1,288 nt of DNA from Naegleria gruberi. Its lineage: Eukaryota. How positions within the stretch are numbered: position 1 is the stretch's first letter; each line of letters begins with the position of its first letter. Below the pieces are notes generated by a model that was given only the letters and a program-made list of their open reading frames with translations, searched no databases and had not been told where the DNA came from. Shown here piece after piece: positions 1-1,288 of this stretch. The stretch lies in assembly GCA_000004985.1 (NCBI GenBank), contig GG739455.1, one strand, 5' to 3'. A program made the position numbers and the translations under genes.

Positions 1-1
1 C

Positions 2-67
2 ATATGGCTTTTTAGTGAGATTCGTCAGCAGAATGTTTTTGAAATTATTGAGCTTGAAGAAGAATAA
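2..67 (+). CDS. 3' end of an upstream protein-coding gene (partial, product unknown); C-terminus ...IWLFSEIRQQNVFEIIELEEE*
   Basis: Frame 2 is open from the window edge to TAA at 65-67. Codons are overwhelmingly A/T-ending (ata, ctt, ttt, agt, att, cgt, aat, gtt, gaa x4) and position 1 is G-enriched, as expected for genuine coding sequence in an AT-rich genome. The overlapping frame 3 runs longer (3-122, stop TAA 120-122) but uses many G/C-ending codons (ggc, gtg, ttc, gtc, agc, ttg, aag, aac), which is atypical for this base composition. Only 21 codons are visible, so the frame choice is tentative. Confidence 0.35.
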   Translation: MWLFSEIRQQNVFEIIELEEE

Positions 68-126
68 CAGACAAATTACCAGTGATGGCTACGAGGAAAC
101 CTATTCCAAAGCAAGTGAATAAATTG

Positions 127-140
127 TATATTATAATATA
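127..140. repeat. Perfect 14-bp A/T-only palindrome TATATTATAATATA, containing TATAAT on both strands
   Basis: Direct reading shows 127-140 is self-complementary. TATAAT is on the plus strand at 132-137 and on the minus strand as the complement of 130-135. TG at 125-126 gives a TGTATATT extended -10-like arrangement. It lies immediately downstream of the left-end CDS stop codons. Confidence 0.8.
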
Positions 141-151
141 AAATTAATATT

Positions 152-180
152 TTGAAAAATTCTTATCAATTATTTACAGT
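152..180 (+). promoter_or_regulatory. Candidate sigma70-like promoter: TTGAAA (152-157), 17-bp spacer, TACAGT (175-180), upstream of ORF 211-381
   Basis: The -35-like hexamer matches 5/6 and the -10-like hexamer has the conserved T1, A2 and T6. Spacing is 17 bp and the predicted start is about 187, 24 nt before the ATG. AT-rich DNA yields many such matches by chance. Confidence 0.15.
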
Positions 181-186
181 AAACAT

Positions 187-196
187 TTCCCGCCCA
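187..196. repeat. GC-rich 10-mer TTCCCGCCCA; exact reverse complement of 1111-1120 (GC-box-like, GGGCGG core on minus strand)
   Basis: Exact 10/10 inverted match to TGGGCGGGAA at 1111-1120. A GC-only core of this length is very unlikely to recur by chance in 1.3 kb of about 27% GC DNA. Confidence 0.7.
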
Positions 197-210
197 ACAA
201 CAATTAAAAA

Positions 211-381
211 ATGAAAAAGCAAAGAAAAATTTCATCCATCAAAAAAACACGGGTGGCCGACGCATATCCCTTTTGGCCTGAAATCAGCACTGGGAAAACG
301 TGGGCCAAGTTGACTTCCAGAGAAATACATAGGTACATGATACCATATTTTCACAGTATGAGTTATCACGCTAAAAAATAA
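211..381 (+). CDS. Hypothetical small ORF, 56 aa, basic (MKKQRKISSIKKTRVADAYPFWPEISTGKTWAKLTSREIHRYMIPYFHSMSYHAKK); coding status doubtful
   Basis: ATG at 211 to TAA at 379-381; the frame is open from 148. It is the only ORF over 50 codons in the window and sits in a locally GC-richer segment. Against coding: many rare-type G/C-ending codons (cgg, ggg, agg, ccc, gcc, acg), weak G enrichment at position 1, no Shine-Dalgarno-like sequence upstream, and it contains the GC-rich repeated motifs GGGTGGCC and GGCCTGAA that recur in non-coding context at 980-991. Confidence 0.22.
   Translation: MKKQRKISSIKKTRVADAYPFWPEISTGKTWAKLTSREIHRYMIPYFHSMSYHAKK
251..282 (+). repeat. Split copy of GC-rich motif GGGTGGCC (251-258) ... 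GGCCTGAA (275-282), related to the contiguous copy at 980-991
   Basis: GGGTGGCC and GGCCTGAA are each exact 8-mers shared with 980-991. Here they are separated by 16 nt (GACGCATATCCCTTTT). The copy lies inside the putative small ORF. Confidence 0.6.
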
Positions 382-606
382 TTTTGGAAAACTTTTATTA
401 ATTTTTGTATTGTTTTTGACGAGTTATAAATAAATTCCCATTTTTAGAATTTTTTAAAATTGATTAATATGGTATTATCATAATGAATACAGAAATTCAT
501 CAAATAATATGAATCAATAATATAAATTGTGTATTAATGTACTTAAATTTCAATTTTCATTAATTCATTCCAACAAATAAAAGACTAGTTATAAAATAAT
601 AAGAGG

Positions 607-618
607 TGTCAATTGACA
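607..618. repeat. Perfect 12-bp palindrome TGTCAATTGACA (TTGACA on both strands), preceded by AAGAGG (601-606)
   Basis: Self-complementary by direct reading. TTGACA equals the sigma70 -35 consensus on either strand, but no convincing -10 sits 16-18 bp downstream in either direction. It is more consistent with a dimeric DNA-binding-protein site. Confidence 0.6.
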
Positions 619-653
619 ATCGCATTAATAGATCATACTTTATTTTAAATTGA

Positions 654-669
654 TGATGTTTTAACATCA
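654..669. repeat. Inverted repeat TGATGTT-tt-AACATCA (7-bp arms, 2-bp centre)
   Basis: Arms 654-660 and 663-669 are exact reverse complements. The spacer is too short for a stable RNA hairpin loop, so an operator-like DNA site or cruciform is more plausible. Confidence 0.55.
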
Positions 670-685
670 CCTTATAGACATGGTA

Positions 686-693
686 TGTATAAT
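686..693 (+). promoter_or_regulatory. TGTATAAT: -10 hexamer TATAAT (688-693) with adjacent upstream TG; possible extended -10 promoter element
   Basis: Exact TATAAT with TG immediately 5' (not the canonical TGnTATAAT spacing). No good -35 (TTAACA at 661-666 is 21 bp away). Nothing coding downstream within the window. Confidence 0.12.
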
Positions 694-708
694 ATTTTTT
701 CATTTTAG

Positions 709-733
709 TTGGTTGATATCAGATTATCAACAA
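709..733. repeat. Hairpin-capable inverted repeat GTTGATA (712-718) / TATCAAC (725-731), 6-nt loop TCAGAT; right arm contains DnaA-box-like TTATCAACA (724-732, 8/9 to TTATCCACA)
   Basis: The 7-bp arms are exact reverse complements. Two more A-T pairs (709-710 with 732-733) can form across a one-base bulge (G711). An EcoRV-type GATATC palindrome is at 715-720. Confidence 0.5.
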
Positions 734-979
734 GATAGAGCTCAACAAAACATTTTCTCCAAAATATGTTAGTGTTTTCATAAGTAAATTAAAAAAACTG
801 ACGACAAAAGTTGCTAAATAGTGTTTAGAGAATTTTCACGTATACGAACATGTATAACGTATTGTAATAAAAAACTAGATAGGGAAAAACATTTAATTCT
901 AAGCTAAAATTTGAAAATACTGTTATTGACCAATATTTTTCATGTTCTAAAAATAATCAGCTTGTTTGCACAGTAATTT

Positions 980-991
980 GGGTGGCCTGAA
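980..991 (+). repeat. Contiguous copy of GC-rich motif GGGTGGCCTGAA, direct repeat of 251-258 plus 275-282
   Basis: Exact 8-mer matches to both halves of the left copy. It is followed by AGGAG (991-995) but no start codon. Confidence 0.6.
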
Positions 992-1033
992 GGAGACTCT
1001 AAAAAAAATCGCTGGACTTGTAATAAGGAAACC

Positions 1034-1055
1034 ATTATTGGAGGCCTCCAATAAT
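1034..1055. repeat. Perfect 22-bp palindrome ATTATTGGAGG|CCTCCAATAAT with GC-rich centre
   Basis: All 11 position pairs are complementary (checked base by base). It is the longest perfect palindrome in the window and the GC-richest local segment. No T-tract follows on the plus strand. On the minus strand it is followed by GGTTTCCTTATTA (moderately U-rich), so a weak minus-strand intrinsic terminator is possible. A protein-binding or cruciform site is equally plausible. Confidence 0.85.
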
Positions 1056-1060
1056 CATCC

Positions 1061-1079
1061 CTATATTGTGATGATATAG
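1061..1079. repeat. Small inverted repeat CTATAT (1061-1066) / ATATAG (1074-1079) with 7-nt loop TGTGATG
   Basis: 6-bp exact complementary arms immediately downstream of the 22-bp palindrome. AT-rich, so weak. Confidence 0.35.
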
Positions 1080-1110
1080 TTGAGCTTGCTTAATGTCCTT
1101 AATATCTGTC

Positions 1111-1120
1111 TGGGCGGGAA
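1111..1120. repeat. GC-rich 10-mer TGGGCGGGAA; inverted partner of 187-196; close to the Sp1-type GC-box consensus KGGGCGGRRY (9/10)
   Basis: Exact reverse complement of 187-196. The inverted pair does not extend beyond the 10-mer, and there is no matching flanking direct repeat. Confidence 0.7.
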
Positions 1121-1130
1121 TCAAACTGAT

Positions 1131-1235
1131 TTTCCATTTCTTTCAAATGTGTAAATACGTTTTCAACATTTAGAACGTTTCAAACGTCTTTAACGTGTTT
1201 AATCAGTTTAGTTTAATAAATTCTTTTCAAAAATT
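1131..1235. repeat. Degenerate tandem array of about 9-bp units. Core copies are AACGTTTCA / AACGTCTTT / AACGTGTTT (1174-1200), flanked by AACATTTAG (1165-1173) and AATCAGTTT (1201-1209). TTTCAA(A) motifs recur at 1141, 1161, 1178 and 1226
   Basis: ACGT tetramers sit at 1157, 1175, 1184 and 1193 (spacing 18, 9, 9). T-tracts recur every 9 nt from about 1131 to 1229. A 13-bp palindrome ACGTTTCAAACGT (1175-1187) spans two units. The ACGT cores give AACGTT, AACGTC and AACGTG in successive units. Confidence 0.65.
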
Positions 1236-1288
1236 AAAAATAACCACCAACGAAATAATTGGAATTTTTTCACGGAATCATTCTGAAT
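1208..1288 (-). CDS. Possible 3' end of a minus-strand gene entering from the right edge (...IQNDSVKKFQLFRWWLFLIFEKNLLN*); weak
   Basis: The minus-strand frame is open for 26 codons from the window edge to a TAA whose complement is at 1208-1210. The other two minus frames hit stops within 6 codons. The stretch is short and AT-rich and it overlaps the 9-bp tandem repeat region, so it could be chance. Confidence 0.15.
   Translation of the reverse strand: MQNDSVKKFQLFRWWLFLIFEKNLLN

What the first reader, a model, noticed from the sequence alone, without database searches (positions are those of the whole stretch)
1034..1055. Perfect 22-bp palindrome with GGAGGCCTCC core in an AT-rich background
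This is the longest exact dyad in the window and has no spacer. That is typical of a dimeric transcription-factor operator, a recombinase or resolvase site, or a cruciform-forming origin element, more than of an RNA terminator. It has no downstream U-tract on the plus strand and only a mediocre one on the minus strand. It lies between the contiguous GGGTGGCCTGAA copy (980-991) and the GC-box 10-mer (1111-1120), forming a roughly 140-bp cluster of GC-rich signals.
Basis: seen in the sequence. Interest (0 to 1): 0.55.

Follow-up and report, generated by a model that had tools for sequence, protein, structure and literature searches.

The report
Single perfect 22-bp palindrome, function unproven
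The window does contain one perfect 22-base palindrome with a G+C-rich centre in A+T-rich, apparently non-coding DNA, but it is a single copy with no relatives, no partner gene and only a weak hairpin, so it is most likely an ordinary protein-binding dyad or a by-product of replication.

Summary
ATTATTGGAGGCCTCCAATAAT at 1034-1055 is a perfect, spacerless 22-nt palindrome and the longest in the window. It is rare by composition: 12 of 5000 dinucleotide shuffles reach 22 nt, and 3 of 20000 also carry 10 or more G/C.

Nothing fixes its function. The window (28% GC) has no ORF above 63 codons under any genetic code, no protein, Pfam, PHROG, NCBIfam or Rfam match, no tRNA, and no DNA match in phages, plasmids or E. 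coli genomes. The exact 22-mer is absent from the genome, viral and metagenome collections. The 16-nt core occurs only at chance level, in unrelated contexts. The window holds no further half-sites.

The hairpin is weak (RNA -7.5, DNA -5.6 kcal/mol), has no U-tract, and its flanks do not extend the pairing beyond chance. It is therefore not an intrinsic terminator. The self-complementary centre points to a DNA-level dyad.

Best guess (0.35): a binding site for a symmetric dimeric protein, within a cluster of recurring G+C-rich words. Main rival (0.30): a functionless palindrome made by template switching. The source genome is unknown and may be eukaryotic. Interest is low.

The parts
1034..1055 (.). 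Perfect spacerless 22-nt palindrome ATTATTGGAGGCCTCCAATAAT: two 11-nt half-sites ATTATTGGAGG
   Evidence: sequence; equals its own reverse complement; symmetry ends at C1033/C1056. Shuffle p about 0.0024; with 10 or more G/C, 3 of 20000 shuffles.
1040..1049 (.). All-G/C-rich 10-nt core GGAGGCCTCC (holds AGGCCT/GGCC), flanked by the A+T arms ATTATT and AATAAT; the flanks also read ATTGG and CCAAT
   Evidence: GGCC at 1043, AGGCCT at 1042, CCAAT at 1048, ATTGG at 1037.
980..991 (+). GGGTGGCCTGAA, the contiguous copy of a G+C-rich word that also occurs split at 251-258 and 276-283
   Evidence: GGGTGGCC at 251 and 980; TGGCCTGAA at 274 and 983. Repeated GC-rich 8-mers, p below 0.0003 in shuffles. 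No wider similarity between the two islands.
251..283 (+). GGGTGGCC ... GGCCTGAA, the split copy of the same word (16 nt lie between the two 8-mers, i.e. a 20-nt interruption of the contiguous 12-mer), in the most G+C-rich island of the window (47% GC)
1111..1120 (+). TGGGCGGGAA, right member of an inverted pair of G+C-rich 10-mers
   Evidence: p about 0.0007 in shuffles.
187..196 (+). TTCCCGCCCA, left member of the inverted 10-mer pair, 914 nt before the right member and 14 nt upstream of the ATG at 211
   Evidence: The bases next to the 10-mers are neither complementary nor duplicated (read).

Best explanation
The palindrome acts, if at all, at the DNA level rather than as an RNA hairpin. 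It is most likely a recognition site for a symmetric (homodimeric) DNA-binding protein. Each subunit would read one 11-bp half-site, ATTATTGGAGG, across a G+C-rich centre. The site sits in a non-coding, A+T-rich region that carries a few other recurring G+C-rich words, which looks like a cis-regulatory cluster. What is shown: exact 22-bp dyad symmetry that includes the centre, rarity by composition, a weak hairpin without U-tract, and non-random G+C-rich words nearby. What is inferred: that a protein binds, and that binding regulates transcription of a neighbouring gene lying outside this window.
For: 1. The symmetry is perfect over 22 bp and includes the central GGCC. A hairpin loop has no need to be self-complementary.
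2. The boundaries are sharp. Pairing beyond the 22 nt is no better than with shuffled flanks on either strand (fraction of shuffles at least as stable 0.63 on +, 0.16 on -).
3. The hairpin is weak: RNA -7.5, DNA -5.6 kcal/mol. The terminator scan found no site.
4. A 10-bp G/C-rich core in a 28% GC window is rare: 3 of 20000 shuffles.
5. Other G+C-rich words recur nearby. The inverted 10-mer pair has p about 0.0007, repeated GC-rich 8-mers p below 0.0003, and five GGCC p about 0.002. They recur as discrete short words, not as part of a longer duplication, as binding sites do.
6. There is no coding signal that would explain the G+C-rich core as a codon effect.
Against: 1. No binding protein, regulator gene or target gene is visible; the window has no detectable gene.
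2. There is no second copy or half-site in the window (6 matches against 4.9 expected).
3. The full 22-mer is absent from all collections, so neither recurrence nor conservation could be tested.
4. Real operators rarely need, or keep, 22 of 22 perfect symmetry. Perfection fits a recent mutational origin at least as well.
5. Promoter-like sites are not enriched (12 against 8.7 +/- 2.8).
6. If the source is a large eukaryotic genome, a few such palindromes are expected without any function.
Confidence: 0.35

Rival explanations
1. The palindrome has no function. It is a young by-product of replication template switching, either an inverted copy of a neighbouring 11-mer or the 'correction' of an imperfect inverted repeat, in neutrally evolving non-coding DNA that may be eukaryotic.
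For: The palindrome is perfect, spacerless and single-copy, with no relatives and no associated gene. The window is an orphan with no ORF under any genetic code, as expected for intergenic or intronic DNA. Template switching is documented to create perfect reverse-complement repeats in a single event and to correct imperfect ones (PMC8794818 abstract; PMC5941160 abstract; PMC5453318). The rate of 1.5e-4 per 1.3 kb implies a few such palindromes per 10-100 Mb by chance alone.
Against: It is rare for this window. A G/C-rich core should erode quickly under A+T-biased mutation unless it is young or selected. It lies within a set of non-random G+C-rich words.
Confidence: 0.3
2. It is an RNA hairpin on the minus strand. 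It could be a 3'-end stabiliser or weak terminator for a leftward transcript. Alternatively it could be a hairpin that hides the ribosome-binding site GGAGG and the ATG of a 31-codon ORF (1035..940).
For: On the minus strand GGAGG lies 9 nt before the ATG at 1035-1033. The preceding 29-codon ORF (1124..1035) ends in TAATG, overlapping that ATG. A promoter-like site lies upstream at 1099..1071. The minus-strand fold extends through G-U pairs to -16.2 kcal/mol. The 3' flank is moderately U-rich.
Against: The terminator scan found nothing. The core is only -7.5 kcal/mol. The minus-strand extension is not better than with shuffled flanks (0.16). The two small ORFs have no homologue and the 31-residue peptide is not hydrophobic. 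Promoter-like sites are at chance level. There is no Rfam match above noise. A palindromic loop is unnecessary for RNA.
Confidence: 0.13
3. It is a DNA recombination, resolution or replication site. A symmetric enzyme (tyrosine or serine recombinase, telomere resolvase, homodimeric nuclease) would cut around the centre, or the site would extrude as a cruciform. It might act together with the inverted 10-mers at 187-196 and 1111-1120, which would bound a roughly 930-bp invertible or mobile segment.
For: A spacerless perfect palindrome is the form of telomere-resolvase targets (42-bp perfect palindrome in PY54 and 56-bp telRL in N15, PMC3540006). An inverted G+C-rich 10-mer pair brackets the region (p about 0.0007).
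Against: At 22 bp it is far shorter than the 42-56 bp sites, and its centre GGAGGCCTCC differs from their shared TACGCGCGTA. There is no further dyad symmetry in the flanks. The window holds no enzyme gene. The 10-mers have no target-site duplication and no extension. The DNA hairpin is only -5.6 kcal/mol. DnaA boxes are at chance level. A symmetric centre gives a recombinase no directionality.
Confidence: 0.08
4. The dyad is incidental sequence inside a small eukaryotic exon. On the + strand the gene would run from ATG 211 to a GT donor at 333, then from an AG acceptor at 972-973 through exon 2 (974-1079), where the dyad would encode PLLEASNN.
For: The two G+C-richer islands (about 40-47% GC) flank a segment of about 21% GC. 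The GT...AG boundaries keep the reading frame open, giving 75 codons. An A-rich context and an E2F-like word lie just upstream of the ATG. AATAAA lies downstream at 1214-1219.
Against: The 75-residue product has no homologue. The 56-residue first ORF hits only tandem-repeat artefacts among 1.84 billion representative proteins. The frame match has a one-in-three chance expectation. No splice-site model could be applied.
Confidence: 0.07

Closest known systems
Palindromic operators of homodimeric transcription factors (for example the 22-bp symmetric CRP consensus or LacI-family sites; comparison from general knowledge, not tested)
   Same: Two inverted half-sites with no spacer, about 20-22 bp in all, located in non-coding DNA.
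   Different: No cognate regulator, promoter overlap, second site or conservation could be shown. Perfect 22 of 22 symmetry exceeds what natural operators usually show.
Intrinsic (Rho-independent) terminators
   Same: An inverted repeat able to form a 9-bp stem with a GGCC loop. In the phage-like contig L001 the same arms, in the opposite order, do form a terminator-like hairpin followed by a T-run.
   Different: Here there is no T-run, only three G-C pairs, -7.5 kcal/mol, and no hit in the terminator scan.
Telomere-resolvase (protelomerase) target sites: N15 telRL and PY54 pal
   Same: A perfect, spacerless palindrome with a G+C-rich centre and A+T-rich arms.
   Different: Those sites are 56 bp and 42 bp and share the centre TACGCGCGTA (PMC3540006). 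This one is 22 bp with a different centre, no flanking symmetry and no tel gene in view.
Hairpin-forming palindromes that mark mRNA 3' ends in Mimiviridae and Pithovirus (the 'hairpin rule')
   Same: An A+T-rich genome, a palindrome in non-coding DNA that is not conserved in sequence (PMC4402537), and one AAAATTGA word at 455-462.
   Different: No ORF ends just upstream. A 1.1-kb stretch without genes is unlike those dense genomes. The giant-virus contigs that hold the 16-mer carry it inside an ORF. AAAATTGA occurs once, at about chance expectation.
Perfect inverted repeats created or corrected by replication template switching
   Same: Perfect arms, single copy, no associated function needed (PMC8794818, PMC5941160, PMC5453318).
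   Different: The event cannot be demonstrated without an ancestral or sister sequence.
Eukaryotic promoter words (E2F-type TTTCCCGCC, CCAAT/ATTGG boxes)
   Same: TTTCCCGCC occurs at 186-194 and GGGCGGGAA at 1112-1120. The dyad contains ATTGG and CCAAT. TTTCCCGCC is used as an E2F site in animal and plant papers.
   Different: This is word matching only. The organism is unknown. The two CCAAT pentamers are 11 bp apart, probably too close for two NF-Y complexes (general knowledge, not tested).

Membership tests
Intrinsic terminator | G+C-rich stem-loop of adequate stability | tested here: inconclusive
   A 9-bp stem with a GGCC loop forms, at -7.5 kcal/mol with only three G-C pairs. It is absent from the + strand minimum-energy fold in context.
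Intrinsic terminator | Run of U directly after the stem | tested here: not met
   The + strand continues CATCCCTATATTG and the - strand GGTTTCCTTATTAC. The scan found 0 terminator-like sites.
Intrinsic terminator | Position just downstream of a gene end | tested here: not met
   No ORF above 63 codons under any code and no homologue in six frames.
Dimeric transcription-factor operator | Dyad-symmetric half-sites | tested here: met
   11 + 11 nt, perfect.
Dimeric transcription-factor operator | Overlap with or proximity to a promoter | tested here: inconclusive
   One 9-of-12 promoter-like site on the - strand (1099..1071) would place the dyad at about +9 to +31. Such sites are not enriched (12 against 8.7 +/- 2.8).
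Dimeric transcription-factor operator | Cognate regulator gene nearby, or recurrence of the site in a regulon | not testable with these tools
   The source genome was not found. There is no gene in the window and no extra half-site in the window.
Telomere-resolvase target (telRL/pal) | Perfect or near-perfect palindrome of about 42-56 bp | tested here: not met
   The symmetry stops at 22 bp. Required sizes are from PMC3540006.
Telomere-resolvase target (telRL/pal) | Adjacent protelomerase gene | tested here: not met
   No protein-family match in any of the six frames of the window. The genome beyond the window is unknown.
Tyrosine-recombinase core site (lox/FRT/dif type; general knowledge) | Two inverted arms around an asymmetric 6-8 bp spacer, 28-34 bp in all | tested here: not met
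   The centre is itself symmetric and the total length is 22 bp.
Dispersed palindromic repeats (REP-like elements, MITEs) | Many copies per genome | tested here: inconclusive
   The 22-mer has 0 hits in the genome, viral and metagenome collections. The 16-mer core has 47 scattered hits in 596 Gb against about 139 expected for uniform composition, with no shared flanks. The source genome itself could not be searched.
Terminal-inverted-repeat transposon (for the 10-mer pair 187-196 / 1111-1120) | Terminal inverted repeats flanked by a target-site duplication | tested here: not met
   The repeat is exactly 10 nt. The adjacent bases (...AAACAT on the left, TCAAAC... on the right) give no duplication of 2-8 nt (read).
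Helitron 3' end (general knowledge) | Short hairpin about 10-12 nt before a terminal CTRR | tested here: not met
   No CTAA, CTAG, CTGA or CTGG within 15 nt after the dyad on either strand.
Mimiviridae-type 3'-end hairpin | Palindrome directly after the stop codon of a viral gene, in a gene-dense A+T-rich genome | tested here: not met
   No gene ends upstream and the window is essentially ORF-free. There is no match in IMG/VR apart from chance 16-mers.
Known structured RNA families (Rfam) | Score at or above the family gathering threshold | tested here: not met
   The match over the dyad is RAGATH-32 at 15.4 bits against a threshold of 41.8, E 1.3. All five matches in the window are far below threshold.

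The most novel reading that the evidence does not exclude
The inverted G+C-rich 10-mers (187-196 and 1111-1120) bound a gene-less cassette of about 930 bp that is inverted or mobilised by an enzyme encoded elsewhere. The 22-bp palindrome inside it would be the minimal symmetric binding or cleavage site of a homodimeric enzyme. That would make a new kind of non-coding switch or mobile element in an unsampled A+T-rich genome.
Probability: 0.04. Interest if true: 0.6.

Novelty: new member of a known kind. Interest (0 to 1): 0.2.

Why it matters
If the dyad is a real binding site, it would mark a regulatory region in an A+T-rich genome that none of the searched collections contains. Its half-site, ATTATTGGAGG, would be a handle for finding the regulator. 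As the evidence stands it is one isolated palindrome with no conservation, no partner and no transcript data. Its main value is as a worked negative: it is not a terminator, not a known repeat family, not a telomere-resolution or recombinase core site, and not part of any detectable gene.

Tried and rejected
1. Source and relatives.
- Whole-window blastn against phages, plasmids and E. coli genomes: no match.
- Exact 22-mer in genome, viral and metagenome contigs: 0 hits.
- A 40-mer from 251-290 in viral contigs: 0 hits.
- 16-mer core: 5 viral and 47 genome stretches, none sharing flanks with the window.
- Arms with a 0-30 nt spacer: one hit, inside a phage ORF.
- Combined motif-spacing ('syntax') patterns: 0 hits, or hits only in contigs of 46-73% GC.
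- Sequence strings in full-text papers: only incidental primers and cDNAs, or nothing.

2. Coding content.
- ORFs under seven stop-codon schemes.
- Ten ORF products looked up exactly.
- Six frames against Pfam, PHROGs and NCBIfam and against 5.8 billion proteins.
- HMMER of ORF 211-378 against 1.84 billion representatives: only tandem-repeat artefacts.
- A tblastn 'relative' in IMG/VR (L006/L007): rejected, because it contains a stop codon, lies antisense to a real gene, and the contig is 48% GC.

3. RNA.
- Rfam at E up to 10 and tRNA search: nothing credible.
- Folds of the G+C-richer islands: z-scores between -0.4 and -0.8.
- Flank-extension test: negative.

4. Other ideas rejected.
- Replication origin: DnaA boxes at chance level.
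- Duplication between the two G+C-rich islands: alignment score within the null range.
- Terminal-inverted-repeat transposon, Helitron end, and telRL-like extended symmetry: read directly from the sequence, none met.
- Tandem repeats: only marginal arrays.

Full report
OBSERVATION. The window is 1288 nt and 28% GC. Positions 1034-1055 read ATTATTGGAGGCCTCCAATAAT, which equals its own reverse complement. C1033 and C1056 end the symmetry, so this is a perfect 22-nt palindrome without a spacer. It is the longest in the window; the next are 14 nt (127-140) and 12 nt (607-618). The longest palindrome reached 22 nt in 12 of 5000 dinucleotide-preserving shuffles. A palindrome of 22 nt or more with at least 10 G/C appeared in 3 of 20000. 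At about 1.5e-4 per 1.3 kb it would still turn up by chance in tens of megabases of similar sequence, or in a scan of many windows.

WHAT SURROUNDS IT. The window has no detectable gene.
- The longest open frame is 63 codons with the standard stops. No stop-codon reassignment opens a frame spanning more than about half the window; the longest is 271 codons when TAG alone is a stop, about chance length for so few stops.
- Ten ORF products are absent from a collection of 15 billion proteins.
- All six frames, with stops masked, match nothing in Pfam, PHROGs or NCBIfam, and nothing among 5.8 billion proteins at E up to 1.
- An exhaustive HMMER search with the 56-residue ORF 211-378 returned only tandem-repeat proteins, in which a weak 15-residue match is multiplied by the repeats.
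- There is no tRNA, and no Rfam match near any gathering score.
- Promoter-like sites are not in excess and no terminator-like site was found.

The DNA itself is an orphan.
- blastn found nothing in phages, plasmids or E. coli genomes.
- The exact 22-mer is absent from one genome per bacterial and archaeal species, from IMG/VR and from JGI metagenomes.

The source is therefore unknown. A stretch of about 1.3 kb without any ORF is rare in prokaryotes and their viruses and normal in eukaryotes. Several words read like eukaryotic signals: TTTCCCGCC at 186-194, ATTGG/CCAAT inside the dyad, AATAAA at 118-123 and 1214-1219, and a GT...AG pair that joins two G+C-richer blocks in frame. These are leads, not tests.

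IS IT ONE OF A FAMILY? Within the window the half-site ATTATTGGAGG has no further copies. Allowing up to three mismatches gives 6 matches against 4.9 +/- 2.3 expected, and two of the six are the palindrome itself.
- The 16-nt core ATTGGAGGCCTCCAAT occurs in 5 viral contigs and in 47 stretches of 596 Gb of genomes. Uniform composition would predict about 139. The hits lie in unrelated taxa, mostly inside genes, and none shares flanks with the window.
- Two contexts are instructive but unrelated. In a phage-like contig (L001) the 16-mer is the junction of two tandem copies of a terminator-like hairpin, GCCTCCAATA-ATGTGTGA-TATTGGAGGC, followed by a T-run. In five Stenotrophomonas records (L025, L029, L035, L037, L041) it is the centre of a conserved 28-nt palindrome. 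In L025, the only locus whose surroundings were read, that palindrome lies between two co-directional genes, about 0.7 kb from a 507-codon ORF that looks like an integrase.
- Patterns that ask for the same arms with a spacer, or for the window's own motif spacing, gave nothing or gave chance hits in G+C-rich contigs.

RNA OR DNA? As RNA the dyad forms a 9-bp stem with a GGCC loop at -7.5 kcal/mol. On the + strand it is not part of the minimum-energy fold in context. On the - strand G-U pairs extend it to -16.2 kcal/mol. When the 9-bp stem was held fixed and the 20-nt flanks were shuffled, the observed energies were ordinary: the fraction of shuffles at least as stable was 0.63 on + and 0.16 on -. 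No U-run follows on either strand. The four central bases are themselves self-complementary. A hairpin loop does not need that, whereas a true DNA dyad has it by definition. As DNA the hairpin arm is worth only -5.6 kcal/mol, so spontaneous cruciform extrusion is not favoured. DnaA-box-like words are at chance level. Together these results argue against a terminator and against a structure-driven origin. They leave a DNA-level dyad.

THE NEIGHBOURHOOD IS NOT RANDOM. Against dinucleotide shuffles:
- the inverted 10-mers TTCCCGCCCA (187-196) and TGGGCGGGAA (1111-1120) have p about 0.0007;
- repeated G+C-rich 8-mers, including GGGTGGCC at 251 and 980, have p below 0.0003;
- GGCC occurs five times (p about 0.002), while CCGG, GCGC and CGCG do not occur at all;
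- ACGT occurs seven times (p about 0.004).

The two G+C-richer islands (180-400 and 940-1160) share only these short words and no longer similarity. None of the islands folds better than shuffles do. Short G+C-rich words recurring in A+T-rich non-coding DNA are what protein-binding sites look like. This is the main positive argument for the best explanation.

EXPLANATIONS. I rank a binding site for a symmetric dimeric protein first (0.35). A functionless palindrome produced by replication template switching comes second (0.30). That mechanism is documented to create and to perfect inverted repeats (PMC8794818, PMC5941160, PMC5453318). Perfect 22-of-22 symmetry fits a recent template switch at least as well as it fits selection. 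A minus-strand RNA hairpin (0.13) has some suggestive anatomy: GGAGG lies 9 nt before an ATG, there is a TAATG stop-start overlap, and a weak promoter-like site lies upstream. It fails every quantitative test. A recombination or resolution site (0.08) shares the spacerless perfect form of protelomerase targets. Those are 42-56 bp with a different conserved centre (PMC3540006). No enzyme gene, target-site duplication or extended symmetry is present. An incidental position inside a small eukaryotic exon (0.07) cannot be excluded.

COMPARISON AND VERDICT. The element works most like a palindromic operator, but membership of any named family could not be established. It fails the defining features tested for intrinsic terminators, telomere-resolvase sites, tyrosine-recombinase cores, terminal-inverted-repeat transposons, Helitron ends, Mimiviridae 3'-end hairpins and Rfam families. 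It is a real but isolated sequence feature of a familiar kind in an unidentified, apparently non-coding, A+T-rich locus. Interest is low (0.2). The decisive step is simply to find the source genome and look at copies, conservation and transcripts.

Noticed in passing
window 187-196 and 1111-1120: Inverted pair of G+C-rich 10-mers, TTCCCGCCCA and TGGGCGGGAA, with 914 nt between them (p about 0.0007 in shuffles). The repeat is exactly 10 nt and has no target-site duplication. Both members contain the E2F-type word (TTTCCCGCC at 186-194). They could bound an invertible or mobile segment, or be two transcription-factor sites.
   Followed up: partly
window 251-283 and 980-991: GGGTGGCCTGAA occurs once contiguous (980-991). 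It occurs once split as GGGTGGCC + 16 nt + GGCCTGAA, as if 20 nt had been inserted with a GGCC duplication. No wider similarity surrounds the two copies.
   Followed up: partly
window 255, 275, 303, 984, 1043: GGCC occurs five times (expected about 0.8, p about 0.002), while CCGG, GCGC and CGCG are absent. Four of the five sit in TGGCC/GGCCA.
   Followed up: partly
window 1157-1202: Four of the window's seven ACGT cores cluster here, with a 9-nt period (AACGTTTCA AACGTCTTT AACGTGTTT). TRF score is only 33. This could be an iteron-like or bZIP-type site array, or chance.
   Followed up: partly
window 1-1288: No ORF above 63 codons with standard stops, and no stop reassignment opens a frame spanning more than about half the window (longest 271 codons with TAG as the only stop). 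There is no protein, RNA-family or DNA match anywhere searched. The window is an orphan, apparently non-coding stretch, which is unusual for prokaryotic or viral DNA.
   Followed up: yes
window 211-332 and 974-1079 (+ strand): A possible two-exon gene. ATG at 211 sits in an A-rich context, a GT donor at 333, an AG acceptor at 972-973, and the frame stays open to TAG at 1077-1079 (75 codons). The exon-like blocks are about 40-47% GC and the 641 nt between them about 21% GC. The product has no homologue.
   Followed up: partly
window 1124-940 (- strand): A 29-codon ORF (1124..1035) ends in TAATG, overlapping the ATG of a 31-codon ORF (1035..940). GGAGG of the palindrome lies 9 nt before that ATG. 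A promoter-like site lies at 1099..1071. Neither ORF has a homologue.
   Followed up: partly
L001 1720-1800 (IMGVR_UViG_3300028569_000044): In this 31% GC phage-like contig the same 16-mer arises at the junction of two tandem copies of a terminator-like hairpin (GCCTCCAATA-ATGTGTGA-TATTGGAGGC, then a T-run), between two minus-strand ORFs. This shows one evolutionary route to such a palindrome.
   Followed up: partly
L025 3630-3657 (also L029, L035, L037, L041; Stenotrophomonas spp.): A conserved 28-nt perfect palindrome, ACGGATATTGGAGGCCTCCAATATCCGT, is present in all five loci. In L025, the only one whose surroundings were read, it lies in a roughly 60-nt gap between two co-directional genes, about 0.7 kb from a 507-codon ORF that looks like an integrase (not checked against any family). 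It has no T-run; it may be an operator or an RNA-processing hairpin of a mobile island.
   Followed up: partly
window 127-140 and 607-618: Two shorter perfect palindromes, TATATTATAATATA and TGTCAATTGACA; the second is two back-to-back TTGACA hexamers. Both lengths are common in shuffles of this composition.
   Followed up: yes
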